A stretch of 14,881 bases of DNA from Candidatus Heimdallarchaeota archaeon (GTDB taxonomy: Archaea; Asgardarchaeota; Heimdallarchaeia; Heimdallarchaeales; Heimdallarchaeaceae), in the NCBI GenBank assembly GCA_021399345.1, contig JAAFKI010000097.1, positions 1 to 14,881 on the forward strand, given 5' to 3'. How positions within the stretch are numbered: position 1 is the stretch's first letter; each line of letters starts with the position of its first letter. The position numbers were made by a program, and so were the translations under genes. Shown here piece by piece: positions 198 to 14,881 of this stretch. The notes beneath the pieces were generated by a model, which was not told the DNA's origin, did not search any database, and saw nothing but the letters and a program-made list of their open reading frames with translations.

Positions 198-2075
198 ATG
201 AATAAAAGAATAAAAAGAAACAATATGCTAGGAATTTTTTCTCTTATTATACTACTAACAACTACTTTCTCAATGGTAAGTGTTAGTTCGACTCAACAGG
301 TTCCACAGGAGAATTTCAGGCGTTTAAACTATACAACAAGTGATCCCCTTTACATAACAAATGATTCAGATCTTGCAGGAAATGCTTCTGATGGAGACGG
401 GTCAGCAAGCACACCTTATGTTATTGAAGGACTGAGTATAATTACAGGAGATTCTAATGCCATATATATTACTGGGACAACAGTTAACTTCACTATAAGA
501 GATTGTTACCTCGTAGGATCAAATAAAGGTATCTGGATCGAGATGGCTCCATCAAACTCTGTCGAAATTAGTAATAACATAGTAAGTGGAAATAATATAG
601 GAATAAGAGTAGATTATGCTGATTATACTAATATTACCGATAACATTTGTCAAAACAGTGGAGAGGGTATATATCTGCAAGTTTCAGACTATGCTTACCT
701 TGAGAATAACACTTGTTTTGGTGGTGATTATGGCATTAGCACGTGGACAAGCTCACATTGTACCTTTGTTGACAACATATTATACTCAAATTCATATAAC
801 GGGTTATACGTGGCTGAGAACAGCAATTACAACAATATAACTTACAATAAGTGTTATAGCAATGGTAGAGAAGGTATTTACCTTTCTAATTCAATGCTTA
901 GTTCAGTTACACATAATGAATGTTATCTAAACAACTATAATGGAATTTACGTTTTGTCTGGAAGCCTGAACTCTTTTGAAAATAATTATTTACATAACAA
1001 TAACAGAGACGGAATTAAAATTACGAGTTCAGATTCTAACATAGTTGCAAACAATACTCTATATGATAATGACTGGTATGGTATAAATAACAACTATGCT
1101 ACATCTACATCTATATTAGATAATAATGCCACTAAAGATGGTTTTGGGATCTTCGCAGGTAGTCAAGGGGTTTATGATGGGTTATCTGTAGGTGGTAATA
1201 CAGTCAATGGTAAACCTTTAGGTTACATAAATGGATTAGGGGAAGCTACTTTGGCAGCAAATGTTTATGGACAGCTAATCCTTGTATTTTGTGATGGAAC
1301 AATAGTTAAGGATGAGACTATTGCAGATACTAGCATTGCTTTAATTATGGTTGGTTGTGAAAATGTTACAGTTGACAATTGTAACTTTGACAATAATAAC
1401 TTTGGTAGTATTCGTCTTGACAATTCTATGGAGACTACAATTCAAAACACCAAATGTAGTTACAATGAGGAATATGGAGGAGTTTACAGTCTTGGAGCAA
1501 CCAATACCTCAATCTATAATGTTACTGCTAACCATAATCAATTTGGTATTTTCTTAATGGGTGCTACAGTCTTTAACGTATCTCATTGTACAGTAATGTC
1601 CAATTCTTGGTATAATACTCGTTTTCAAGGAGCTGTTGCTGGAAACATTAGATACAATACAATTAGTAGTAGTTTAGACGAGGGGATACTTCTCTATGAT
1701 TGTGACTACACAAATATCTCTCATAATCTCTTCGAAAATAATTTTGGCTATGCTATATATTCAGATAGCGGTTCTATGTTTAATTGGATTCACCATAATG
1801 CTTTCATTAACAATAATCAAGGAGATACTCAAGCTTATGATGAATCATTACTCAACATGTGGGAAGATCCGTGGAATATGGAAGGAAATTATTGGGATGA
1901 CTGGGTAAGTGGAAACTATACTTTAGATGGTATAGGAAATGCAAATGATTCCTATCCATTAGGAGATATTCCTCCAGGTGTAATTATATCAGAATTTAAC
2001 CAATTCTCACTTTTGATTTTCTTACTTCCTTTAGCCTTTACGTCTGTGGTAATCATCAGAAAACGAAAGAGATAA
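198..2075 (+). CDS. Secreted right-handed parallel beta-helix (NosD/CASH, pectin-lyase-like fold) cell-surface protein with C-terminal sorting/anchor signal
   Basis: Basic-then-hydrophobic signal peptide. Many G-I-x-L/I...N-N-x-I-x-x-N PbH1 repeats. Archaeal NosD-type motifs GDGSASTPYVIEGL, NTVNGKPLGY and GNYWDDW...DSYPL. At least 15 N-x-S/T sequons. C-terminus is SEF + hydrophobic helix + RKRKR. Confidence 0.9.
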   Translation: MNKRIKRNNMLGIFSLIILLTTTFSMVSVSSTQQVPQENFRRLNYTTSDPLYITNDSDLAGNASDGDGSASTPYVIEGLSIITGDSNAIYITGTTVNFTIRDCYLVGSNKGIWIEMAPSNSVEISNNIVSGNNIGIRVDYADYTNITDNICQNSGEGIYLQVSDYAYLENNTCFGGDYGISTWTSSHCTFVDNILYSNSYNGLYVAENSNYNNITYNKCYSNGREGIYLSNSMLSSVTHNECYLNNYNGIYVLSGSLNSFENNYLHNNNRDGIKITSSDSNIVANNTLYDNDWYGINNNYATSTSILDNNATKDGFGIFAGSQGVYDGLSVGGNTVNGKPLGYINGLGEATLAANVYGQLILVFCDGTIVKDETIADTSIALIMVGCENVTVDNCNFDNNNFGSIRLDNSMETTIQNTKCSYNEEYGGVYSLGATNTSIYNVTANHNQFGIFLMGATVFNVSHCTVMSNSWYNTRFQGAVAGNIRYNTISSSLDEGILLYDCDYTNISHNLFENNFGYAIYSDSGSMFNWIHHNAFINNNQGDTQAYDESLLNMWEDPWNMEGNYWDDWVSGNYTLDGIGNANDSYPLGDIPPGVIISEFNQFSLLIFLLPLAFTSVVIIRKRKR

Positions 2076-7002: not shown

Positions 7003-8001
7003 TTATAAAACTAATCTGATTTCAATAATTCCCCCAATCATTTCTAGAGAAACTACACCAGGTCCAACTAATTTTAACGGGGCATCATTTCCTCCTAGAA
7101 AGACCGCATTTTTCTCAGCAGCTAATATAAAACTATCATTTCTTGCTATGTCTCCTGCATCCAAATTAACAGTTTCACCTAAAGAATTCTTGAGAATAAT
7201 ATTATAACCAGATGCTGCAAGCGTGTCATTAAAGGAATCAGTAGCACCTCCATCAATTATTGCAATTATTCTCCATAAAGCTAAGCCTTCGTATGTGTTA
7301 AATCTATCTCCTTCTTGTACTTGGTAAAACAATCTATTTTCTCCTTCATTGAAATGCATAAACGCTTCAAAGGTAGGCTTATCTATACTATCGTTAGTTA
7401 TTCCATACAAATAAACAATCCATGAACTCAGAGTTATAACATTAAGTTCTACTACATCTTTCACCCATGGTGAACCATCAGATAGATACATTTCTCCGTC
7501 CTCAGCTACAGCAGCGATTCTTAGTTTTCCATCTCCTGGAGCTAAGCTCCCCCCATCCATTTCATATGCTAATATAATACTGAAATTTCCTACGCCTAAG
7601 TAATCTCCAGTAGTACTATCATAAGCAGGAAAATGTCCTTGAAGCATATCATATGTAAAAATGACTTTATAATTATCACTAGATACAATCTCAAGCTCCT
7701 CTCCACCAGCTAACCCCCCTACATCATTTAGAAGAGTTGATATTTCCACACCTTTGTAGAGATTTGGTCCTACTAGTGTGCCAGTGGATTTTCTATAACC
7801 AGCATATCCTGTAATATTAGCAAAATCCCTGATTTCAGTTATTGTATAATTCTTTGTAGAACTTGATCCTTGGAGAGTCAAAACAACATTTGTATCAGGA
7901 GTCTGCTCATAAAACGCACCAAAATATATCCCTAAACCAGCTCCAGTAAGAATTAAAACTGAAATTATACCAATAAAAATTGTGCTGACTTTGCTACTCA
8001 T
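7003..8001 (-). CDS. Membrane-anchored extracytoplasmic protein with two tandem molybdopterin-oxidoreductase-like (Oxidored_molyb / sulfite oxidase fold) domains, no cysteine
   Basis: N-terminal TM helix. Domain 1 motifs YKGVEISTLL, SSDNY, IILAYEMDG, GKLRI, WVKDVVEL. Domain 2 equivalents YEGLALWRII, FILAAEKN, PLKLVG, MIGGIIEI. The ORF track starts at 8019; ATG 8001 is preferred from TATA spacing. Confidence 0.78.
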   Translation of the reverse strand: MSSKVSTIFIGIISVLILTGAGLGIYFGAFYEQTPDTNVVLTLQGSSSTKNYTITEIRDFANITGYAGYRKSTGTLVGPNLYKGVEISTLLNDVGGLAGGEELEIVSSDNYKVIFTYDMLQGHFPAYDSTTGDYLGVGNFSIILAYEMDGGSLAPGDGKLRIAAVAEDGEMYLSDGSPWVKDVVELNVITLSSWIVYLYGITNDSIDKPTFEAFMHFNEGENRLFYQVQEGDRFNTYEGLALWRIIAIIDGGATDSFNDTLAASGYNIILKNSLGETVNLDAGDIARNDSFILAAEKNAVFLGGNDAPLKLVGPGVVSLEMIGGIIEIRLVL

Positions 8002-8023
8002 GAGTAAATTTATCTGCATCCAT

Positions 8024-8151: not shown

Positions 8152-9393
8152 ATGGTCTCCAAGTATGTAAAAATTATAGCAGTTTCTATTGCGGTACTTG
8201 GAGTTATAATCCCTGCGTTTTATTTTAGTTTTTATCAAGGACCACAAAAGGACATCGAGATAGATATATGGTACACATACGAAGGTATTCAAATTATAGC
8301 AGACGCCATAGAACAATATGAGCTAGAGCATCCAGACATCAATATTAATCTTATTGAGCAACCTTCTTCTGGGTGGTTAGATAAGTTCATCAGTATAGCG
8401 CAGACAGGTGATGCTCCTGACATCTTCCTTGGTAAGGGAGCTTGGTTTGGAGAACTTGTAGAGCTAGAATATATCCGTTCTCTAACTAATTTTCTTTCTC
8501 CTACAGATGAAGCAAAATATCTCCCTTCAGCGATTAATAGTTTAAGTTACATGAACGAACTTTGGGGATTGCCTTTATGGTATGATTCAATTTTATTATT
8601 TTATAACAAGGACGTCTTTGACCAAAATAGTCAACCTTACCCTCAAGAAAACTGGACGGACATAGAATTCGTTGAAGCAGCTGTTAATATGACTGATCGC
8701 TCTGTGAATCAGGAGTATGGACTTGTATGGGGAACATTGTCGCCTTATATGTGGCCAGCTTTTCAGTCAGGTTTTGGTCATGGACCATTATATCAGAACA
8801 ACTCTATCATAGTAAATGACACAGCTTCTAGAAATGCAATGGAATTCATTTACAACTTAAAATATGTGGAGAGGTGTGTAAGTTATGATGACACCAGCCA
8901 TTCAGCTACTCAAGCATTCATCACAAACAAAGGAGCAATGCTGATTTATGGGGGGTGGTATATCCCATCTTTAAATGAAATAGGAACAAATTATGGAGTT
9001 CAGATTCTTCCAATTATATCTTCTACTGATAAAAGAATTTCTCCAATGGTTGAAATTAAAGGATGGGGAATGTCAAAGGATACGCTCCATCCGGATATTT
9101 GTTATGATATTCTTTTATTCTTAACATCAGATGAAGTTCAAAAAGAGCTGGTTTCAATTGAATATAAGGTTCCTACTTTAATTGAAACAATATATTCTCC
9201 AACTGTTCAAAATGAGCCATTAATTTTAACCCAAATAAAACAAATTGAAAATAGTCAATATTATCCTATGGATCCCATCTACAATTTTTATTCTGATTAT
9301 ATAAGAGCAGCATTACAGTTCATATTGTTAAATCACGAAAACATTCAAAGTTCTCTTGATGATGCTCAAGCAGGTATAGACGCTAATAGGTGA
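8152..9393 (+). CDS. Carbohydrate ABC transporter (CUT1) extracellular solute-binding protein, MalE-like, N-terminal membrane anchor
   Basis: N-terminal TM without lipobox Cys. Motifs IDIWYT, YELEHPDININL, GDAPDIF, LWGLP...LLFYNKDVF, FITNKGAMLIYGGW and GWGMSKDT. Confidence 0.92.
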   Translation: MVSKYVKIIAVSIAVLGVIIPAFYFSFYQGPQKDIEIDIWYTYEGIQIIADAIEQYELEHPDININLIEQPSSGWLDKFISIAQTGDAPDIFLGKGAWFGELVELEYIRSLTNFLSPTDEAKYLPSAINSLSYMNELWGLPLWYDSILLFYNKDVFDQNSQPYPQENWTDIEFVEAAVNMTDRSVNQEYGLVWGTLSPYMWPAFQSGFGHGPLYQNNSIIVNDTASRNAMEFIYNLKYVERCVSYDDTSHSATQAFITNKGAMLIYGGWYIPSLNEIGTNYGVQILPIISSTDKRISPMVEIKGWGMSKDTLHPDICYDILLFLTSDEVQKELVSIEYKVPTLIETIYSPTVQNEPLILTQIKQIENSQYYPMDPIYNFYSDYIRAALQFILLNHENIQSSLDDAQAGIDANR

Positions 9394-9398
9394 GCTTA

Positions 9399-12300
9399 AT
9401 GAGGAAAATTAAACTAACAAAGAATTTCAAAATCAGCTTACTTACTGTTATAATCTTAATTGGAATTCTTCTTTTCGCTCAATCTCCCTCATCAAACAAA
9501 ATTAGAGCTCAAAGTGATAATGTGTCAATTTCGGATATCCAAGATAGGTATGTTCTACTCAATTGGTCAGTTCCAGATAATTCCCTTTTTAATGGATTTA
9601 GAATTGATTATAGAAATGAAACAGGATTTAATCATACATGGTCTTTTATTTTTCTGAATCAAAGTGTAGAAGGAGAAGAGAACTATTTCTCTCCAGTGAA
9701 TTATACTATATCTGACTCAAATCTTCTTGCACAAAAGAAGATTACATTTAATTTTACAGTCTACATTGTTAGTAATGAATCAGATACGATTCATGCAAGA
9801 ATTACAGGACTTTTACCATCGCAATTATACCAATTCTCAATATATCTCGTTAATGCAACTTTCGTAGACTATACGGATATGCAAATTATCCAACAGGTGA
9901 GTGAAGAACTTTATTGGGAATCAGTACAAATTGAGACTCTCCAAAGTCAAGAGGATTTATTACATTATTCGAAGCTGGCTACTTCTCTATCACTACTAGT
10001 TATTGTCATTTTATTTGTTGCAATCTTCATCTTTTTTGCAAGGAGGGATGTTCCATTCAATAAAACCGCATATATATTCATCTTCCCAGCTTTATTGGCT
10101 CTGGTTTTATTGGAAGTTTATCCAATTTTATATGGAATATTCCTATCTTTTACCTCTTACAACCTTGTAAGAGGAGAACAACCTGTTTTTACCGGATTCA
10201 ATAATTATGCACATATTGCTGAAAATCCTCAACTTCCAATAGCTTTCACAACTACTTTAGTTTGGAGTACATTGATCATTTTAGTAAAAATAGTTCTAGG
10301 TTTTATCTTAGCATATATTATTCAATACAAGGTAAGAAGGAAGAAATTATGGTATCTGTTCTTGTATATACCCTGGGCAATTCCATCTTACATCAAAATC
10401 TTATCTTGGAGAACATTCTTTCACGGTACAGGGAGTATATCCTTCTTTAATGCACTATTTGGAACGAATGTAAATCTCTTGACACAACCTTATGTAGCTT
10501 TATTCATCGCATGCTTTGTAGAAGTTTGGGATTCAATTCCCCTAATAACAACATTGTTTCTGGCTGGTTTGAGCAGTATTCCCAAAGAATTAAATGATAT
10601 GGCGGATATTGATCAGATTCGGGAAAGAACTAAGATAAGAAAAATCGTAATTCCTTTAATCAAACCTATTATTCTTCCAGCAATAATATTGGAAATTATC
10701 AAAACTTTTGGTAGCTTTAATGTAGCATTTTTACTAACGAACGGATATCCACTTTTGTCATACGGGTCAAACGAAGCCGGAATCATAGGTGCTACGGATC
10801 TCTTTAGTACGTTTACGTTTTACATGTTCTATCAACAAAGAGAGATAGGAATAGCAGCTGCATACTCAACAATCATGAGTCTTCTGACATTGTTTTTTGT
10901 TTTGATATGGGTGAAGATGTCAAAGGGTACAAAAAGTTCTTACATACCATCTAGTCAGAAAAAAACTTCTACCAATAAATATGTTTTACCCATTCTTTTT
11001 CTATTCCAATCAGTAGGTTATTTAGCTTCAACTTTAACGGGATTCAGATATTTTGGTATTTATTGGAATGATGCACTAAGTTATGTCCTTGCAGGCGTCT
11101 ATCTAATGTCAGCTATTCTGATATTTTCAAAAAAGAACATTTCAATCAAATGGTTCAAAGTGATTCTTATTGTAGATATAATCCTTTCACTATCACAATT
11201 CTTTTTCTATCAGATGTGGTATGCTTTGAATTGGAATATCTTTATTATTGTTCTAGAATTTTTTATGATTTCAAATATAAGAAAAAATAGTTCTGAAGAA
11301 GTAGAATTCAAACCAAGAGAAAAAATAATAATCTGGTTCAAACAAACAAGAAGAAATGTTAGGATTTTTCTTCAAAAGCTTGATTCTAGAATAGTTAATT
11401 TGAATTCAATTCACGGCATACTGTTAATTCAATTTACTACTATCTTAACGGCCAATATCCTGCTGAAATTGACAAATTGGCTTCCTTGGACTATTCTATC
11501 ACTATTAGGTATTTATTTACTTGCTAGTTTTGTCTCAGAATTCTTTGTGAAACTATCTATACTATTGCAGCCAATACTTTGGACGGGGATAATTATAAAT
11601 TGGAATCTAGTAGGTTGGGTTACAACTATCAGTTTACTATCATTCATGTTTATTCTAAATTATCTTAGGATCCACACCCAGTTTAATTTCAAACAGAACA
11701 AGTTCTTATCGAAAATGTATGAAATTGCATCCAAACCAAAAAATAGTATTTTCTTCTTATTCTTAGTTACAGCTGTGGCACTTATTCCATTTTGGAACAT
11801 TATATGGATAGCTTTCTCGGGAGGCAATAGTTCAGTACCAACCTCGTTTTTCCCAGAAAATCCTACTTTAGATAATTTTAGAAGGTTATTTACTCAAGAA
11901 AGTATTCACTTGAACTTCGCTAATTCGCTACTTATTGCTCTGGGATCAGCAAGCATTTGTGTCATCTTAACAGCCTTAGCAGCTTATGGATTTTCAAGAT
12001 ATACATTTAAAGCTAAGAAGGAGATGATGGTTGGAGTTTTTACTTTAAAAATGTTTACAGGCATTCTTACACTAATACCATTTTATCTTATCATGTTTAA
12101 TTTAGGATTAATAGACACATACATTGGTGCAATTTTAGCCTTTAGCACACACACCATACCACTAGCGCTATGGATAATAAAGGGGTATATTGATTCAATT
12201 CCAAAGGAATTAGATGAATCTGCTATAGTTATGGGGAATTCGCGATTTAGAGTTCTTCGAAAAATTGTTTTACCATTATCAGGACCAGCGATAGCTATTA

Positions 12301-12554
12301 CATTCTTGTTAAATTTCTTGAGTACATGGAATGGTTTTCTGATGGCATTTGTATTATTACAGTCACCAGGAAAATACACTCTCCCCATCAAACTATACAC
12401 TTTTTTGGGGTCTATAGAATCTAGTTCTCCCGAATGGGGATTATTTGCAGCTGCATCAATATTAGTAACAATTCCTTTGCTTTTGGTTTTCGTATTTCTA
12501 AGAAATTATCTGCTTAAAGGAATTGATAATTCAGTAAACATAAGAGATGTATGA
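9399..12554 (+). CDS. Fused carbohydrate ABC transporter permease: FN3-like ectodomain + MalF-like + ~8-TM insert + MalG-like
   Basis: MalF-like block (AYIFIFPA...YPILYGIFLSFT...GFNNY...IPWAIP) at ~10062-10925. MalG-like block (IPFWNIIWIAFS...PTLDNF...NSLLIA...AAYGFSRY...IPKELDESA...WNGF) at ~11739-12554. Continuous frame. ATG 9399 is preceded by AGGTGA (9388-9393); the alternative GTG 9390 overlaps the upstream stop. Confidence 0.9.
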   Translation: MRKIKLTKNFKISLLTVIILIGILLFAQSPSSNKIRAQSDNVSISDIQDRYVLLNWSVPDNSLFNGFRIDYRNETGFNHTWSFIFLNQSVEGEENYFSPVNYTISDSNLLAQKKITFNFTVYIVSNESDTIHARITGLLPSQLYQFSIYLVNATFVDYTDMQIIQQVSEELYWESVQIETLQSQEDLLHYSKLATSLSLLVIVILFVAIFIFFARRDVPFNKTAYIFIFPALLALVLLEVYPILYGIFLSFTSYNLVRGEQPVFTGFNNYAHIAENPQLPIAFTTTLVWSTLIILVKIVLGFILAYIIQYKVRRKKLWYLFLYIPWAIPSYIKILSWRTFFHGTGSISFFNALFGTNVNLLTQPYVALFIACFVEVWDSIPLITTLFLAGLSSIPKELNDMADIDQIRERTKIRKIVIPLIKPIILPAIILEIIKTFGSFNVAFLLTNGYPLLSYGSNEAGIIGATDLFSTFTFYMFYQQREIGIAAAYSTIMSLLTLFFVLIWVKMSKGTKSSYIPSSQKKTSTNKYVLPILFLFQSVGYLASTLTGFRYFGIYWNDALSYVLAGVYLMSAILIFSKKNISIKWFKVILIVDIILSLSQFFFYQMWYALNWNIFIIVLEFFMISNIRKNSSEEVEFKPREKIIIWFKQTRRNVRIFLQKLDSRIVNLNSIHGILLIQFTTILTANILLKLTNWLPWTILSLLGIYLLASFVSEFFVKLSILLQPILWTGIIINWNLVGWVTTISLLSFMFILNYLRIHTQFNFKQNKFLSKMYEIASKPKNSIFFLFLVTAVALIPFWNIIWIAFSGGNSSVPTSFFPENPTLDNFRRLFTQESIHLNFANSLLIALGSASICVILTALAAYGFSRYTFKAKKEMMVGVFTLKMFTGILTLIPFYLIMFNLGLIDTYIGAILAFSTHTIPLALWIIKGYIDSIPKELDESAIVMGNSRFRVLRKIVLPLSGPAIAITFLLNFLSTWNGFLMAFVLLQSPGKYTLPIKLYTFLGSIESSSPEWGLFAAASILVTIPLLLVFVFLRNYLLKGIDNSVNIRDV

Positions 12555-13674
12555 AATGAAAGTTGAAATAAAAAACCTAACAAAAAAATATGGCAAAAAA
12601 ACAGCCCTCAATGACATTAATATCACAATTCCTGAAGGAAGTTTCACTGTTATCCTCGGACCTTCAGGAAGTGGAAAAACCACTTTATTGAGAATTCTAG
12701 CAGGATTATTATATCCTTCAGAAGGTCAGATATTTTTTAATGAAAAAAACATAACAGACATACCTGCAAATAAAAGAAACATAGCAATGGTTTTTCAAAA
12801 CTATCCTCTTTTTCCACATATGACTGTAGAAGAAAATTTGCGTTTTCCATTGGAGAGCCAAAAAGAAGGAAATTTGTTTAAAAGAAGAACTTTCTCATCA
12901 TCAGACGTACAAAATAAAGTGGATGAAACACTAAAATTGTTTAAATTAGAGGAACATAGAAACAAATATCCTTCTCAACTAAGTGGGGGAGAACAACAAA
13001 GGGTAGCTATAGGTAGAGAAGTAATTAGACAGCCAGTGATTTTTCTCTTTGATGAACCACTAAGCAATATTGATGCTAGATTAAGGTATGAGATGAGAAC
13101 ATGGATACGAAAACTTCATGGAATTCTGAAGACAACAATGGTTTATGTGACACATGATCAAGCTGAAGCTCTCAGTCTCGGAGACAATATCATTTTATTG
13201 CAAGATGGAGAAATTGCTCAAATGGGGCCTCCTGAAGAACTTTATGACGAACCTAATCAGAAGTTTGTTGCACAATTTATTGGTAACTTTCCTATGAATT
13301 TTCTCAAATTCAAGTCATCAAAAAATTCAGTCTCATTAGTTATTGATGATCAGATTTTGCTTCCCAAAAATCTTCAAAAGAAAATACTAAAAGACAATAT
13401 CACAGAAGGTGAAATAGGATTTAGAGCAGAATCTATCAGAGAACTAGATCCAAACAAAACAATTGATGAAAATCAAATAGTACTGGAATGTTTCATTACT
13501 GATTCAGAAAAAATACTTGATCAACTGGTTTTAACTCTTGATTTTAAAGGAGAAAACCTATTCTTTGTCACCAAAACCAGGAAGAAATTCACAACAAGTC
13601 AGAAACTTTCGGTTCTTCTACACTCTGAATCCCTCTACACTTTTGCTAAAAACAACAAGAGAGCATTTCAGTAA
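12547..13674 (+). CDS. Carbohydrate ABC transporter ATP-binding subunit, MalK/MsmK family
   Basis: GPSGSGKTT, VFQNYPLFPHMTV, LSGGEQQRVAIGR, FLFDEPLSNID, YVTHDQAEAL, FVAQFIG and a C-terminal regulatory/OB extension. Overlaps the permease stop by 8 bp; alternative ATG at 12556. Confidence 0.95.
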   Translation: MYEMKVEIKNLTKKYGKKTALNDINITIPEGSFTVILGPSGSGKTTLLRILAGLLYPSEGQIFFNEKNITDIPANKRNIAMVFQNYPLFPHMTVEENLRFPLESQKEGNLFKRRTFSSSDVQNKVDETLKLFKLEEHRNKYPSQLSGGEQQRVAIGREVIRQPVIFLFDEPLSNIDARLRYEMRTWIRKLHGILKTTMVYVTHDQAEALSLGDNIILLQDGEIAQMGPPEELYDEPNQKFVAQFIGNFPMNFLKFKSSKNSVSLVIDDQILLPKNLQKKILKDNITEGEIGFRAESIRELDPNKTIDENQIVLECFITDSEKILDQLVLTLDFKGENLFFVTKTRKKFTTSQKLSVLLHSESLYTFAKNNKRAFQ

Positions 13675-13742: not shown

Positions 13743-13774
13743 GAGAGCAAAACCATAATATTGGTTTGGTTCTC
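13743..13774. repeat. Imperfect inverted repeat (13-bp arms, 6-nt loop) upstream of the PAS gene
   Basis: gagagcaaaacca-taatat-tggtttggttctc: 11 Watson-Crick pairs, one G-U and one mismatch. Confidence 0.6.
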
Positions 13775-13808
13775 AATCTGGGGTAAAAAATCTATTCGAG
13801 TGAATCAG

Positions 13809-14881
13809 ATGGCAGAAGAAGACATAGGGGAGATATTCGATAAAATCGATGTAGGAGTAACCATAGTTAAAAATAGAAAAATTGAATTTGCAAACGATCA
13901 TTTGTTGCAAATAACAGGATATTCATTGAAAGAAATACAAGGAAAAAGTTTTGTTTTTCTTGCTGCAACAGAAGAGAAAAACAGATTGAAAACAATTAGA
14001 TCTGAAAATGATAAAACGAATACCTACCCAAAAGAAATCGAATTTTGGATTGCAACAAAGGATGGAAAAAGAAAATTCATACGCAATCGCTTTTATCCTA
14101 TTATAGAGGGAGAAAAATCAAATAAACTTTTTATTATTACTAATGACATAACAGGGGATAAACAAAAAGAAACTAAAGTTATGGCTTCTGAGTTCAAAAA
14201 ATCAAAATTCTTAGATTTTCTGACTGAACATATAATTTTCTATGATACGGACATGAAAATAATCTGGTCTAATAAAATTACAAGTGATCTATTGGGACAA
14301 TCTCCGGAGGATATTGTTGGAGAAATATGTTATGAACTATGGTATCAAAGAGATCAACCATGTGACAATTGCCCTGTCATTAAGGCAAGAGATTCAGGAC
14401 AAGAGCATATGGCAGAAGTAATAACTCCAGATCATAAAACCTGGTTCGTTAGAGGATACCCTGTTTATGGAGATGATGGGAGTTTAATTGGTGTAGCAGA
14501 ATTGGCTAGTGATGTTACAGAGAATAAACAAACATCCAAAGAACTTCAAGAAAGTGAAGAAAGATTTAAACAGATTTTTCATAATACAAATGATGGTATC
14601 TTTGTTAGTAGAAGAGGAGATGATGGAGTATTTGAAGAAATCGTTGAAACTAACAGTGTAGCTGCTGCCATGTATGGTTACACTCGAGAAGAATTCATGA
14701 AGATGAAACCATCTGACTTCATTGTTACAGGAGAAAAGGAAAGTTTAGAATTTGTACAGGAGTTAATGGAGAAAAAAGAACTTACTTTTGAGAGAATACA
14801 TAAAACTAAAGATGGAAGGGTGATAATTGTGGAAATTAGTTCTCACTTATTCACTCTTGGTGATGACTTAGTTAGTTTAGC
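13809..14881 (+). CDS. Multi-PAS-domain sensor protein (at least 3 PAS/PAC), truncated at the window end; probably the N-terminus of a histidine kinase or other signalling protein
   Basis: Not in the ORF track because there is no stop in the window. My translation from ATG 13809 is open to the end: MAEEDIGEIFDKIDVGVTIVKNRKIEFANDHLLQITGYSLKEIQG...TKDGKRKFI...NDITGDKQKE | IIFYDTDMKIIWSN...CYELWYQRDQPCDNCP...DVTENKQ | ESEERFKQIFHNTNDGIF...MYGYTREEFMKM...HKTKDGRVIIVEISS. No TM segment. Confidence 0.9.
   Translation, partial: MAEEDIGEIFDKIDVGVTIVKNRKIEFANDHLLQITGYSLKEIQGKSFVFLAATEEKNRLKTIRSENDKTNTYPKEIEFWIATKDGKRKFIRNRFYPIIEGEKSNKLFIITNDITGDKQKETKVMASEFKKSKFLDFLTEHIIFYDTDMKIIWSNKITSDLLGQSPEDIVGEICYELWYQRDQPCDNCPVIKARDSGQEHMAEVITPDHKTWFVRGYPVYGDDGSLIGVAELASDVTENKQTSKELQESEERFKQIFHNTNDGIFVSRRGDDGVFEEIVETNSVAAAMYGYTREEFMKMKPSDFIVTGEKESLEFVQELMEKKELTFERIHKTKDGRVIIVEISSHLFTLGDDLVSL

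What the first reader, a model, noticed from the sequence alone, without database searches (positions are those of the whole stretch)
9399..12554. Single-chain giant CUT1 permease: FN3-like ectodomain + MalF + 8-TM insert + MalG in a three-gene importer
Seen in sequence: one uninterrupted ~1050-aa frame carries both permease halves plus two extra modules, and the operon has only SBP, this protein and a MalK-type ATPase. Established: CUT1 importers such as MalFGK2 normally encode the two permeases as separate genes, typically ~280-300 aa each for the core. Inference: this is a distinct importer architecture with roughly 21-22 hydrophobic segments, possibly lineage-specific, in which the extra modules add capture, scaffolding or regulatory functions. 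It is the best candidate here for an undescribed system.
Basis: partly seen in the sequence, partly recalled or inferred. Interest (0 to 1): 0.82.

Follow-up and report, generated by a model that had tools for sequence, protein, structure and literature searches.

The report
Giant single-chain archaeal sugar ABC permease
An Asgard (Heimdallarchaeaceae) archaeon encodes both membrane halves of a maltose-type ABC sugar importer in one 1051-residue protein. That protein also carries a glycosylatable FN3-like outer domain and an eight-helix membrane module with no relatives outside this family. The layout is real, conserved and uncharacterised, but it is a variant of a well-known machine, not a new kind of system.

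Summary
One open frame (9399-12554, 1051 aa) holds a signal/anchor helix, an FN3-like ectodomain, an anchor helix, a MalF/SugA-like core, a 267-aa eight-helix insert and a MalG/SugB-like core. It lies between a MalE-like binding protein and a MalK/UgpC-like ATPase.

It is not a mis-assembly. The same full-length gene and three-gene operon occur in 20 or more independent assemblies. It is present in 25-26 of 30 genomes of one Asgard family and in none of about 370 other Asgard genomes.

"Lineage-specific" is only partly right. About 47 protein clusters of 890-1130 aa from Thermoplasmata have the same module order. One of them sits beside a GH57 alpha-glucanase. Plain MalF-MalG fusions of 618-681 aa exist in Micromonospora and relatives.

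The insert has no homologue outside its own family among 1.84 billion representatives. It has no match in Pfam, PDB sequences or the ESM Atlas. It folds as two generic four-helix bundles and is under purifying selection (dN/dS about 0.1-0.27).

Best reading: a single-chain CUT1 oligosaccharide importer, probably for alpha-glucan or maltodextrin, with an accessory membrane domain of unknown role. The scan had already noted the same protein in another genome (e1-4809472).

Verdict: new variant of a known kind, moderate interest.

The parts
8152..9393 (+). Substrate-binding protein (413 aa), MalE/GanS-like, with an N-terminal hydrophobic anchor or signal and no lipobox Cys
   Evidence: Pfam SBP_bac_1 and SBP_bac_8 at about 1e-25. 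The best natural PDB match is 6ffl, the MalE domain of the Bdellovibrio MalE-MalF fusion (6e-26), followed by many MalE entries. NCBIfam GanS and MalE match weakly. N-terminus read. Conserved upstream of the permease in 19 of 20 loci; the twentieth is cut by a contig end.
9399..9503 (+). Permease residues 1-35: basic N-terminus plus a hydrophobic helix (signal peptide or first membrane anchor)
   Evidence: Hydropathy peak at residues 9-27. AF2 helix 7-25. Lowest conservation of all regions, 0.29.
9504..9968 (+). Permease residues 36-190: FN3-like beta-sandwich ectodomain with five conserved N-X-S/T sequons
   Evidence: Pfam fn3 27.2 bits against a cut-off of 25. AF2 gives an all-beta domain with pLDDT about 80. 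Foldseek matches FN3 domains with TM-target 0.6-0.67. Sequons at N55, N101 and N118 are present in 29/29 sequences, N87 in 27/29 and N152 in 26/29. dN/dS is 0.09-0.17.
9969..10058 (+). Permease residues 191-220: membrane helix that returns the chain to the cytoplasm ahead of the MalF-like core
   Evidence: Hydropathy 3.11, the strongest peak. AF2 helix 184-215. It aligns with the equivalent helix of the Thermoplasmata protein P0040.
10059..10928 (+). Permease residues 221-510: MalF/SugA-like six-helix core with a degenerate EAA loop (D-[ILM]-A-x-[IV]-D-Q) and no P2 loop
   Evidence: PDB SugA 7cad_A 2.5e-24 and MalF 2r6g_F 2.2e-20. Foldseek SugA 6.5e-07. Conservation 0.85. EAA columns, with Q406 invariant. 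The loop between core helices 1 and 2 is only 27 aa.
10929..11738 (+). Permease residues 511-780: family-specific eight-helix membrane insert. Two four-helix bundles are joined by a basic cytoplasmic loop of about 44 aa that contains a helix.
   Evidence: AF2 of the insert alone has pLDDT 80.1. An exhaustive profile search of 1.84e9 representatives returned only family members. There was no consistent Pfam hit, no PDB-sequence hit and no Atlas hit. Fold searches gave only generic four-helix bundles, Z <= 11.2. Invariant motifs include FRYFG and QMWxAxNWN. dN/dS is 0.10-0.27. Length is 263-269 aa in all 17 aligned members.
11739..12554 (+). Permease residues 781-1051 plus the stop codon: MalG/SugB-like six-helix core with a canonical EAA loop (E-S-A-x3-G)
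   Evidence: PDB SugB 8ja7_B 9.4e-31 and MalG 2r6g_G 4.8e-24. NCBIfam MalG 123 bits. Conservation 0.79. EAA columns.
12547..13674 (+). MalK/UgpC-type ABC ATPase (375 aa) with a C-terminal extension of about 135 aa; its start overlaps the permease stop by 8 nt
   Evidence: Pfam ABC_tran 8.4e-37. NCBIfam UgpC 331 bits, MalK 274 bits and GlcV 274 bits, all below the equivalog cut-offs. Conserved downstream in all 20 loci.
7003..8019 (-). Divergently transcribed 338-aa membrane-anchored surface protein (weak Oxidored_molyb-like). A conserved neighbour, with no shown functional link.
   Evidence: Pfam match is only 16.3 bits, below the cut-off. A homologue lies in the same divergent position in 5 of 5 longer loci from four genera, split or shortened in two of them.
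13761..14879 (+). Start of a large multi-PAS sensor protein, cut by the contig end. A conserved downstream neighbour.
   Evidence: Pfam PAS_9, PAS_4 and PAS. Homologues of 1123-1494 aa follow the ATPase in 3 of 5 longer loci.

Best explanation
This is the membrane subunit of a type I, CUT1-class ABC importer for an oligosaccharide, built as a single chain. One permease polypeptide supplies both transmembrane domains, a MalF/SugA-like half and a MalG/SugB-like half. Two copies of the neighbouring MalK/UgpC-type ATPase would dock on its two EAA loops. The neighbouring membrane-tethered MalE-like binding protein would deliver the sugar from outside.

The chain starts inside the cell. It crosses the membrane once, or uses a cleaved signal, and displays an N-glycosylated FN3-like domain outside. 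It then re-enters through a second helix and forms the six-helix MalF-like core. Next it makes an eight-helix detour of two four-helix bundles that begins and ends in the cytoplasm. It finishes with the six-helix MalG-like core.

Shown: the domain order, the topology logic, the conservation, the purifying selection on every module and the conserved operon.

Inferred:
- The substrate is most likely alpha-glucan or maltodextrin-type oligosaccharides. The SBP is MalE-like, and the Thermoplasmata counterpart sits next to a secreted GH57 enzyme.
- The FN3 domain stands in for the missing MalF P2 loop or for a fused binding domain. It would be an extracellular docking or spacing element for the binding protein or the glycan.
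- The eight-helix insert is an accessory membrane domain, comparable in logic to TMD0 of ABCC exporters. Its invariant aromatic/amide motifs lie at the outer membrane face, where they could pack against the FN3 domain, the binding protein or the sugar.
For: - Frame and domains.
- Conservation of the full-length gene: about 38 protein clusters of 1023-1153 aa at 48-98% identity, named Heimdallarchaeota or Heimdallarchaeaceae. Present in 26 of 30 genomes of the family, one copy each.
- Operon SBP-permease-ATPase in all 20 loci.
- No close split form: the nearest standalone MalF-like protein is 35% identical, and the closer short hits lie on contigs of 1-3.6 kb.
- Topology: helices with an even count in the insert, and a K/R-rich loop at 626-669 (11 K/R) on the predicted cytoplasmic side.
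- Selection: dN/dS is 0.02-0.12 for the cores, 0.10-0.27 for the insert and 0.09-0.17 for FN3, in pairs with dS > 0.1.
- Substrate clue: the SBP matches 6ffl and MalE. Thermoplasmata locus L033 reads GH57+Glucodextran_C, SBP, 1022-aa fused permease, then MalK with OB_MalK/TOBE_2. The own genome has three GH57 genes.
- The same subclade of MalF domains also holds SBP-MalF fusions and MalFs with an N-terminal Ig domain. An extracellular module at the MalF N-terminus is therefore a recurrent theme.
Against: - No experiment, expression data or complex model supports transport or the substrate.
- No glycoside hydrolase or sugar-catabolic gene lies next to the operon in Heimdallarchaeaceae.
- GH13 and GH15 were not found in this 88.6%-complete genome. 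The GH57 genes may serve internal glycogen metabolism.
- SBP matches to MalE and GanS are far below the equivalog cut-offs.
- The MalF-half EAA loop has lost the conserved Gly: Q406 is invariant. Coupling to the ATPase may therefore be atypical.
- The full-length AF2 model is poor (pLDDT 56), so nothing is known about how the insert or FN3 packs against the cores.
- The ATPase C-terminal domain is not recognised by Pfam TOBE/OB_MalK models.
Confidence: 0.8

Rival explanations
1. The eight-helix insert is only a passive tether or lipid-facing filler. It arose when a MalG with an N-terminal helical extension was fused to MalF, and it has no function of its own.
For: It is the least conserved membrane part (0.51 against 0.79-0.85). 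Simple fused MalF-MalG proteins of 618-681 aa do without it. The Thermoplasmata counterpart is shorter, about 200 aa with about four helices, and is not detectably homologous (hhalign probability 19.7%). A split Thermoplasmata variant has a MalG of 422 aa with three or four extra N-terminal helices. Fold searches give only generic four-helix bundles.
Against: Length is held at 263-269 aa across the 17 aligned members at 33-90% identity. Sixteen columns are invariant in 31 sequences, including polar residues inside helices (Q537, Q600, Q724) and the FRYFG and QMWxAxNWN motifs. dN/dS of 0.10-0.27 shows purifying selection. A linker needs no membrane helices at all, because both joined termini are cytoplasmic.
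Confidence: 0.3
2. The single long frame is an assembly or gene-calling artefact, or a recently fused or decaying gene.
For: The window is a short contig of a MAG at 88.6% completeness. One related contig seems to carry the gene in two pieces, P0062 (315 aa) and P0039 (711 aa), both on a 9036-bp contig.
Against: The uninterrupted frame of about 1050 aa recurs in 20 or more independent assemblies from four genera with no internal stops. It also recurs in about 38 protein clusters from five data sources. All modules are under purifying selection. Start and stop overlaps with the neighbouring genes are kept.
Confidence: 0.02
3. The system imports something other than an alpha-glucan-type oligosaccharide. 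Candidates are another glycan (for example galacto-oligosaccharides) or a non-sugar CUT1-like substrate. Alternatively, it serves mainly as a sensor feeding the neighbouring PAS protein.
For: The SBP scores slightly better on GanS (83 bits) than on MalE (79 bits), both far below cut-off. No glycoside hydrolase lies nearby, while a giant PAS sensor is a conserved downstream neighbour. JGI names for relatives read 'arabinogalactan oligomer/maltooligosaccharide'. The EAA loop is degenerate.
Against: The top PDB matches are all maltodextrin-binding proteins. The Thermoplasmata counterpart is linked to GH57. Synteny with the PAS gene may only reflect the close kinship of these genomes.
Confidence: 0.3

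Closest known systems
E. coli maltose importer MalFGK2-MalE (TC 3.A.1.1.1; PDB 2R6G and others)
   Same: Type I ABC importer logic. It has a MalF-like and a MalG-like BPD_transp_1 core with EAA loops, a MalK-type ATPase with a C-terminal extension and a MalE-like binding protein.
   Different: Here the two permeases form one chain. The MalF P2 loop is absent (27-aa loop). An FN3-like domain sits at the N-terminus. An orphan eight-helix module separates the halves. The MalF-half EAA loop lacks the conserved Gly.
Mycobacterial trehalose importer LpqY-SugABC (PDB 7CAD, 8JA7)
   Same: These are the best sequence and fold matches of both halves: SugB 9.4e-31 and SugA 2.5e-24, and Foldseek 6.5e-07. 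Both have compact six-helix cores without a P2 loop.
   Different: SugA and SugB are separate proteins of 305-307 and 274-278 aa. They have no ectodomain and no extra membrane module.
Bdellovibrio-type MalE-MalF fusion permeases (PDB 6FFL for the MalE domain) and their marine relatives of 830-876 aa
   Same: They fall in the same well-supported clade of MalF domains (SH-aLRT 95-97). An extracytoplasmic module is fused ahead of the MalF core through extra helices. The operon's SBP is most similar to the 6FFL domain.
   Different: The fused module there is the binding protein itself, and MalG is separate. Here the module is FN3-like, the SBP is a separate gene and MalG is fused. That the Bdellovibrio system transports maltodextrin is my own recollection of the literature; the paper is not in the library.
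Thermoplasmata giant fused permeases (P0040 and about 47 clusters, 890-1130 aa; uncharacterised)
   Same: Same module order: N-terminal helix, FN3-like ectodomain, helix, MalF core, multi-helix insert, MalG core. The cores are 32-38% identical. The ectodomains give an hhalign probability of 72%. The operon has an SBP and MalK. Grouping the two families as one clade is not rejected (AU p = 0.19).
   Different: The insert is about 200 aa with about four helices and shows no significant similarity. The EAA loop is canonical. A GH57 gene lies next to the operon. The best tree does not place the two families as sisters.
Simple fused double-TMD type I permeases: FutB/FbpB/ThiP (12 TMS, TC 3.A.1.10) and 618-681 aa MalF-MalG fusions of Micromonospora, Plantactinospora and Actinoplanes
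   Same: Both BPD_transp_1 domains lie in one polypeptide (PMC3654945). The same genome also has such proteins on C19, C45 and C169.
   Different: They have no FN3 ectodomain and no eight-helix insert. The iron and thiamine families are not CUT1. The Actinobacterial MalF domains lie outside the clade that holds this protein.
TMD0 of ABCC exporters (MRP1, SUR1): a functional analogy only, from my own knowledge
   Same: An extra helical membrane bundle attached to a canonical ABC core, not needed for the core fold.
   Different: It belongs to a different ABC fold class (type IV exporters), has five helices at the N-terminus and shows no sequence or significant fold similarity. The Foldseek ABCC2 rows have E about 2.

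Membership tests
Type I ABC importer, carbohydrate uptake transporter 1 (CUT1, TC 3.A.1.1) | Two BPD_transp_1 transmembrane domains of MalF/MalG type | tested here: met
   Pfam finds two stretches, 92.9 bits against a cut-off of 26.4. The halves match SugA/MalF and SugB/MalG in PDB and by fold.
Type I ABC importer, carbohydrate uptake transporter 1 (CUT1, TC 3.A.1.1) | An EAA coupling loop (EAA-x3-G-x9-I-x-LP) in each transmembrane domain | tested here: inconclusive
   The MalG half is canonical (E-S-A-x3-G ... LPL). The MalF half reads D-[ILM]-A-x-[IV]-D-Q ... IPL, with Gly replaced by an invariant Gln. The loop is present and conserved but deviates from consensus.
Type I ABC importer, carbohydrate uptake transporter 1 (CUT1, TC 3.A.1.1) | MalK/UgpC-type ATPase with a C-terminal regulatory domain, encoded with the permease | tested here: met
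   ABC_tran 127 bits. The best NCBIfam model is the UgpC subfamily at 331 bits over residues 5-373 (cut-off 432 not reached), followed by MalK and GlcV at 274 bits. The gene overlaps the permease stop. The C-terminal ~135 aa are not recognised by the Pfam TOBE or OB_MalK models.
Type I ABC importer, carbohydrate uptake transporter 1 (CUT1, TC 3.A.1.1) | Cognate family-1 extracellular solute-binding protein | tested here: met
   SBP_bac_1 91 bits and SBP_bac_8 91 bits. MalE-family PDB matches. Adjacent in 19 of 20 loci.
Type I ABC importer, carbohydrate uptake transporter 1 (CUT1, TC 3.A.1.1) | ATP-driven, SBP-dependent uptake of a sugar | not testable with these tools
   This needs reconstitution or a genetic test. 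The only indirect clues are the MalE-like SBP and the GH57 neighbour in Thermoplasmata.
Fibronectin type III domain (PF00041) | Sequence match over Pfam's gathering score, and a seven-strand beta-sandwich fold | tested here: met
   27.2 bits against 25, only just over the cut-off. PF00041 is also precomputed on P0002, P0003 and P0065. AF2 gives a beta-sandwich with pLDDT about 80. Foldseek matches FN3 domains (5dft_B TM-target 0.67, 5j7k_A 0.66) at E of 3e-3 to 9e-3. The domain is about 140 aa, longer than a canonical FN3.
E. coli-type MalF (equivalog NF008232) | Eight helices with a large periplasmic P2 loop between helices 3 and 4, and a score over the equivalog cut-off | tested here: not met
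   104.9 bits against a cut-off of 392, matching only model positions 263-516. The loop at the equivalent position is 27 aa.
Any described family for the eight-helix insert | A significant sequence or fold match to a curated family or a solved structure | tested here: inconclusive
   No consistent Pfam hit in 17 members. No PDB-sequence hit at E <= 1. The profile search of 1.84e9 representatives returned only the insert's own family. Foldseek E >= 0.99. VIA-align Z <= 11.2 per four-helix bundle, below the level of about 13 that helical bundles reach by common arrangement.

The most novel reading that the evidence does not exclude
The eight-helix insert is an autonomous accessory membrane domain, of a kind not described for type I ABC importers. 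Its invariant aromatic/amide motifs at the outer membrane face (FRYFG, QMWxAxNWN, GW) would form a docking or glycan-handling platform together with the glycosylated FN3 domain and the membrane-tethered binding protein. Giant single-chain importers in Heimdallarchaeaceae and Thermoplasmata would then be a distinct structural class of CUT1 systems, adapted to archaeal cell envelopes that lack a periplasm.
Probability: 0.3. Interest if true: 0.65.

Novelty: new variant of a known kind. Interest (0 to 1): 0.45.

Why it matters
Type I ABC importers are among the best-understood transporters. Their described topologies run from about 5 to 20 helices (PMC3654945).

This protein has 21-22 helices in a single CUT1 chain. 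It combines a fused FN3-like ectodomain with an orphan eight-helix module that is conserved in one Asgard family. A parallel form exists in Thermoplasmata. Together these extend the known architectural range of the family.

The finding also gives a concrete test case. Archaea without a periplasm must organise the binding protein, any glycan-capture domain and the translocator at the cell surface, and this protein shows one way they may do it.

The protein is also a candidate for structure determination. A single chain fixes the stoichiometry of the two membrane halves.

It does not reveal a new transport principle.

Tried and rejected
The AF2 model does show two four-helix bundles. A 2x4 shape is therefore plausible, but a duplication is not shown.
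- Insert as a degenerate third permease core: hhalign against the MalF and MalG cores gave 0.1-0.3%.
- Insert homologues elsewhere. The profile search of 1.84e9 representatives returned one family member, one chimeric fragment (P0056) and one repetitive artefact (P0057). Pfam per member, the PDB profile search and the ESM Atlas returned nothing.
- Fold identity of the insert: Foldseek found nothing at E < 0.99. VIA-align found only generic bundles, with tetraspan membrane proteins (CD20, synaptophysin, pannexin, uroplakin) among soluble four-helix bundles at similar Z. No family can be named.
- Homology of the Heimdall and Thermoplasmata inserts: probability 19.7%, not significant. The N-terminal extension of the split MalG in L037 matches neither insert.
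- Monophyly of the two giant families: they are not sisters in the best trees, but holding them as one clade is not rejected (AU p = 0.19). The question stays unresolved.
- The full-length AF2 model was too poor (pLDDT 56, pTM 0.35) to read inter-domain packing.
- Literature: no paper describing this architecture was found. The Bdellovibrio MalE-MalF paper is not in the library.
Context was taken instead from the genome search, the fetch from genomes and the search for related loci.


Full report
**Observation.** The window is the whole of contig C25 of a 3.27-Mb, 88.6%-complete MAG. A single open frame runs from GTG 9390 or ATG 9399 to 12554. Pfam finds two BPD_transp_1 stretches and an fn3 match just over its cut-off (27.2 against 25 bits) at residues 41-153. 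In PDB sequence space, residues 220-506 match SugA/MalF and residues 788-1042 match SugB/MalG. NCBIfam gives the same picture, with every match far below the equivalog cut-offs. The gene lies between an SBP_bac_1 binding protein (8152-9393) and an ABC_tran ATPase (12547-13674), and overlaps or nearly abuts both. There is no second permease gene.

**Anatomy and topology.** Hydropathy, the full-length AF2 model and an insert-only AF2 model with pLDDT 80.1 agree on the following order:
- Helix 7-25.
- A beta-sandwich at about 41-180, with pLDDT about 80 and Foldseek matches to FN3 domains at TM-target 0.6-0.67.
- Helix 184-215.
- Six helices of the MalF-like core, 222-510.
- Eight helices at 526-762, arranged as two four-helix bundles. 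These are joined by a 44-residue loop that holds 11 Lys/Arg and a short helix.
- Six helices of the MalG-like core.

Lys/Arg counts in the loops fit the positive-inside rule for this path. Nine of the 13 N-X-S/T sequons fall in the ectodomain. Five of these are conserved in 26-29 of 29 relatives. The loop where E. coli MalF carries its P2 domain is only 27 residues long. The MalF-half EAA loop is degenerate (D-[ILM]-A-x-[IV]-D-Q, with Gln406 invariant). The MalG half keeps E-S-A-x3-G.

**Is it real?** About 38 protein clusters of 1023-1153 aa share 48-98% identity over the full length. They come from ENA, NCBI, JGI and Logan assemblies, and those that carry a name are mostly called Heimdallarchaeota or Heimdallarchaeaceae. 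Among species-representative genomes, the full-length gene is found in 26 of 30 genomes of the window's own family (four of five genera). Each has one copy without internal stops. Fragments occur only at contig ends. None of about 370 other genomes of the phylum has a match at E <= 1e-45.

All 20 fetched loci keep the ATPase downstream. Nineteen keep the SBP upstream, and the last is cut by its contig end. No close split form exists. Short hits at 74-93% identity sit on contigs of 1-3.6 kb, and the nearest standalone MalF-like protein is 35% identical. Nei-Gojobori estimates on pairs with dS > 0.1 give dN/dS of 0.02-0.12 for the cores, 0.10-0.27 for the insert and 0.09-0.17 for FN3. Mis-assembly and gene decay are therefore rejected.

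**The insert.** An alignment of 17 inserts (A2) shows lengths of 263-269 aa. It has invariant residues concentrated in F-R-Y-F-G (first outer loop), Q-F-F..Q-M-W-x-A-x-N-W-N (the turn between helices 3 and 4), D, H, two W, Q and G-W. Sixteen columns stay invariant in 31 sequences. The searches for relatives gave the following:
- A profile search that reads every one of 1.84 billion representatives returned only a family member, a chimeric fragment and a repeat artefact.
- Pfam on each member, a PDB profile search and the ESM Atlas gave nothing.
- Foldseek found nothing better than E 0.99.
- VIA-align matched each half separately to generic four-helix bundles, soluble and tetraspan alike, at Z <= 11.2. 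That is below what helical bundles reach by common arrangement.
- Profile-profile comparison finds no internal duplication and no relation to the permease cores, while the MalF-MalG control works.

The insert is thus an orphan, family-specific membrane module. Because it starts and ends in the cytoplasm, it is not needed for topology.

**Wider distribution.** The best hit outside the family, P0040 from a Thermoplasmata MAG (999 aa), has the same module order. Its cores are 32% and 38% identical to those of the window protein, and the alignment begins at the helix before the MalF core. P0040 heads about 47 clusters of 890-1130 aa with two BPD_transp_1 domains. Their ectodomain resembles the Heimdall FN3-like domain at hhalign probability 72%. 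Their insert is about 200 aa with about four helices and shows no significant similarity (19.7%). Their EAA loops are canonical.

One such locus reads GH57 with a Glucodextran_C surface module, SBP, 1022-aa permease and MalK with OB_MalK/TOBE_2. Another is a split variant, in which MalG carries three or four extra N-terminal helices. Plain MalF-MalG fusions of 618-681 aa occur in Micromonospora, Plantactinospora and Actinoplanes isolates, and proteins of 620-640 aa occur in metagenomes. An Atlas cluster of 642-aa permeases is mostly Thermotogota.

**Phylogeny of the MalF domain.** Trees place the Heimdall family on a long stem inside a supported clade (SH-like support 95-97). That clade also holds the Thermoplasmata giants, the SBP-MalF fusions of Bdellovibrio type and MalFs with N-terminal Ig-like domains. 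The Actinobacterial fusions lie outside it. The two giant families are not sisters in the best tree, but forcing them together is not rejected (AU p = 0.19). One origin with transfer, or two independent assemblies, both remain possible.

**Function.** The SBP's best natural PDB match is the MalE domain of the Bdellovibrio MalE-MalF fusion (6ffl, 6e-26), followed by many maltodextrin-binding proteins. NCBIfam gives weak GanS and MalE matches. Together with the GH57 neighbour in Thermoplasmata, and three GH57 genes in this genome (GH13 and GH15 not found), an alpha-glucan-type oligosaccharide is the most likely substrate. This is inference.

In five longer Heimdallarchaeaceae loci the neighbourhood is conserved. 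Two ABC exporter half-transporters and a divergent 338-aa surface protein lie upstream, and a giant multi-PAS protein follows the operon in three of the five. No sugar-catabolic gene lies next to it. These genomes are close kin, so this synteny shows no functional link.

The proposed roles remain hypotheses. FN3 would substitute for the P2 loop or for a fused binding domain. The insert would be an accessory domain whose conserved outer-face aromatic/amide motifs dock FN3, the SBP or the glycan. They rest on position, conservation and analogy. The full-length model (pLDDT 56) cannot test them.

**Comparison with what is known.** The system meets the sequence-testable criteria of a CUT1 type I ABC importer, apart from the degenerate first EAA loop. 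It is not an E. coli-type MalF, because it has no P2 loop and scores 105 against 392 bits. Double-TMD permeases are described for the iron family, and described topologies reach 20 helices (PMC3654945). No paper describing an FN3-MalF-insert-MalG chain was found in seven literature searches and two paper look-ups. Database names are only 'ABC transporter permease subunit'. The same protein in another genome of this family was already noted by this scan (e1-4809472). Its coordinates fit the match G025:C147:35690-38842, locus L015, which I checked.

**Verdict.** This is a real, conserved and uncharacterised domain-architecture variant of a well-known transporter class. It is shared in outline by two archaeal lineages and carries one truly orphan membrane module. 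It is a new variant of a known kind and of moderate interest.

Noticed in passing
G000:C169:107839-110814 (L009:5939-8818 +) and G000:C88 (L012:3655-6270 +): The same genome fuses other ectodomains to ABC permeases. A 959-aa protein joins LVIVD beta-propeller repeats to two BPD_transp_1 domains (FbpB-like, next to an SBP_bac_8/6 protein). An 871-aa protein joins LVIVD repeats to a DppB-like permease. Plain double-domain permeases of 581 aa (C19) and at least 505 aa (C45) also occur. Ectodomain-bearing and fused permeases seem to be a habit of this lineage.
   Followed up: partly
L033:26-9228 (Thermoplasmata MAG contig DATBLI010000114.1): A locus with a GH57 enzyme carrying a Glucodextran_C surface module, a 640-aa SBP with a CarboxypepD_reg domain, a 1022-aa fused giant permease and MalK with OB_MalK/TOBE_2. 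It looks like a complete surface alpha-glucan capture and uptake unit.
   Followed up: partly
L037:5224-9518 (uncultured archaeon contig CAZSUE010000030.1): A split relative of the giant permease. It has a 1008-aa MalF with an N-terminal region of about 780 aa, and a 422-aa MalG with three or four extra N-terminal helices. This may be a pre-fusion or post-fission state.
   Followed up: partly
window 10578-10667 (permease residues 394-423): The MalF-half EAA loop reads D-[ILM]-A-x-[IV]-D-Q, with Gln406 invariant in 29 relatives. The Thermoplasmata counterparts keep EAADVDG. Coupling to one ATPase protomer may therefore be altered.
   Followed up: yes
window 7003-8019 (-): A 338-aa Cys-free, membrane-anchored protein with only a sub-threshold Oxidored_molyb match. 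It keeps its divergent position next to the operon in five loci from four genera, and is split or shortened in two of them.
   Followed up: partly
window 13761-14879 (+), cut by the contig end: A multi-PAS protein. Homologues of 1123-1494 aa follow the ATPase gene in three of five longer loci. It may be a sensor linked to the importer, or the position may simply be inherited synteny.
   Followed up: no
window 198-2075 (+): A 625-aa NosD/right-handed beta-helix (CASH-type) protein, possibly a surface glycan-binding or glycan-cleaving protein. It has no homologue in the five related loci compared.
   Followed up: no
G016:C25:28422-31838 (protein P0006, 1153 aa): One family member is about 100 aa longer. 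The query region around residues 770-868 (start of the MalG core) matches twice within one 1164-aa open frame, which suggests a local tandem duplication.
   Followed up: no
L036 (contig PBNP01000035.1, labelled Flavobacteriaceae MAG): A relative of the Thermoplasmata permease at 47% identity sits on a contig binned as Flavobacteriaceae. This may be a mis-binned archaeal contig or a transfer.
   Followed up: no
protein P0056 (324 aa): A database protein joins the middle of the insert to an unrelated soluble C-terminal part. It is most likely a chimeric contig or a frame artefact, not a standalone insert gene.
   Followed up: partly
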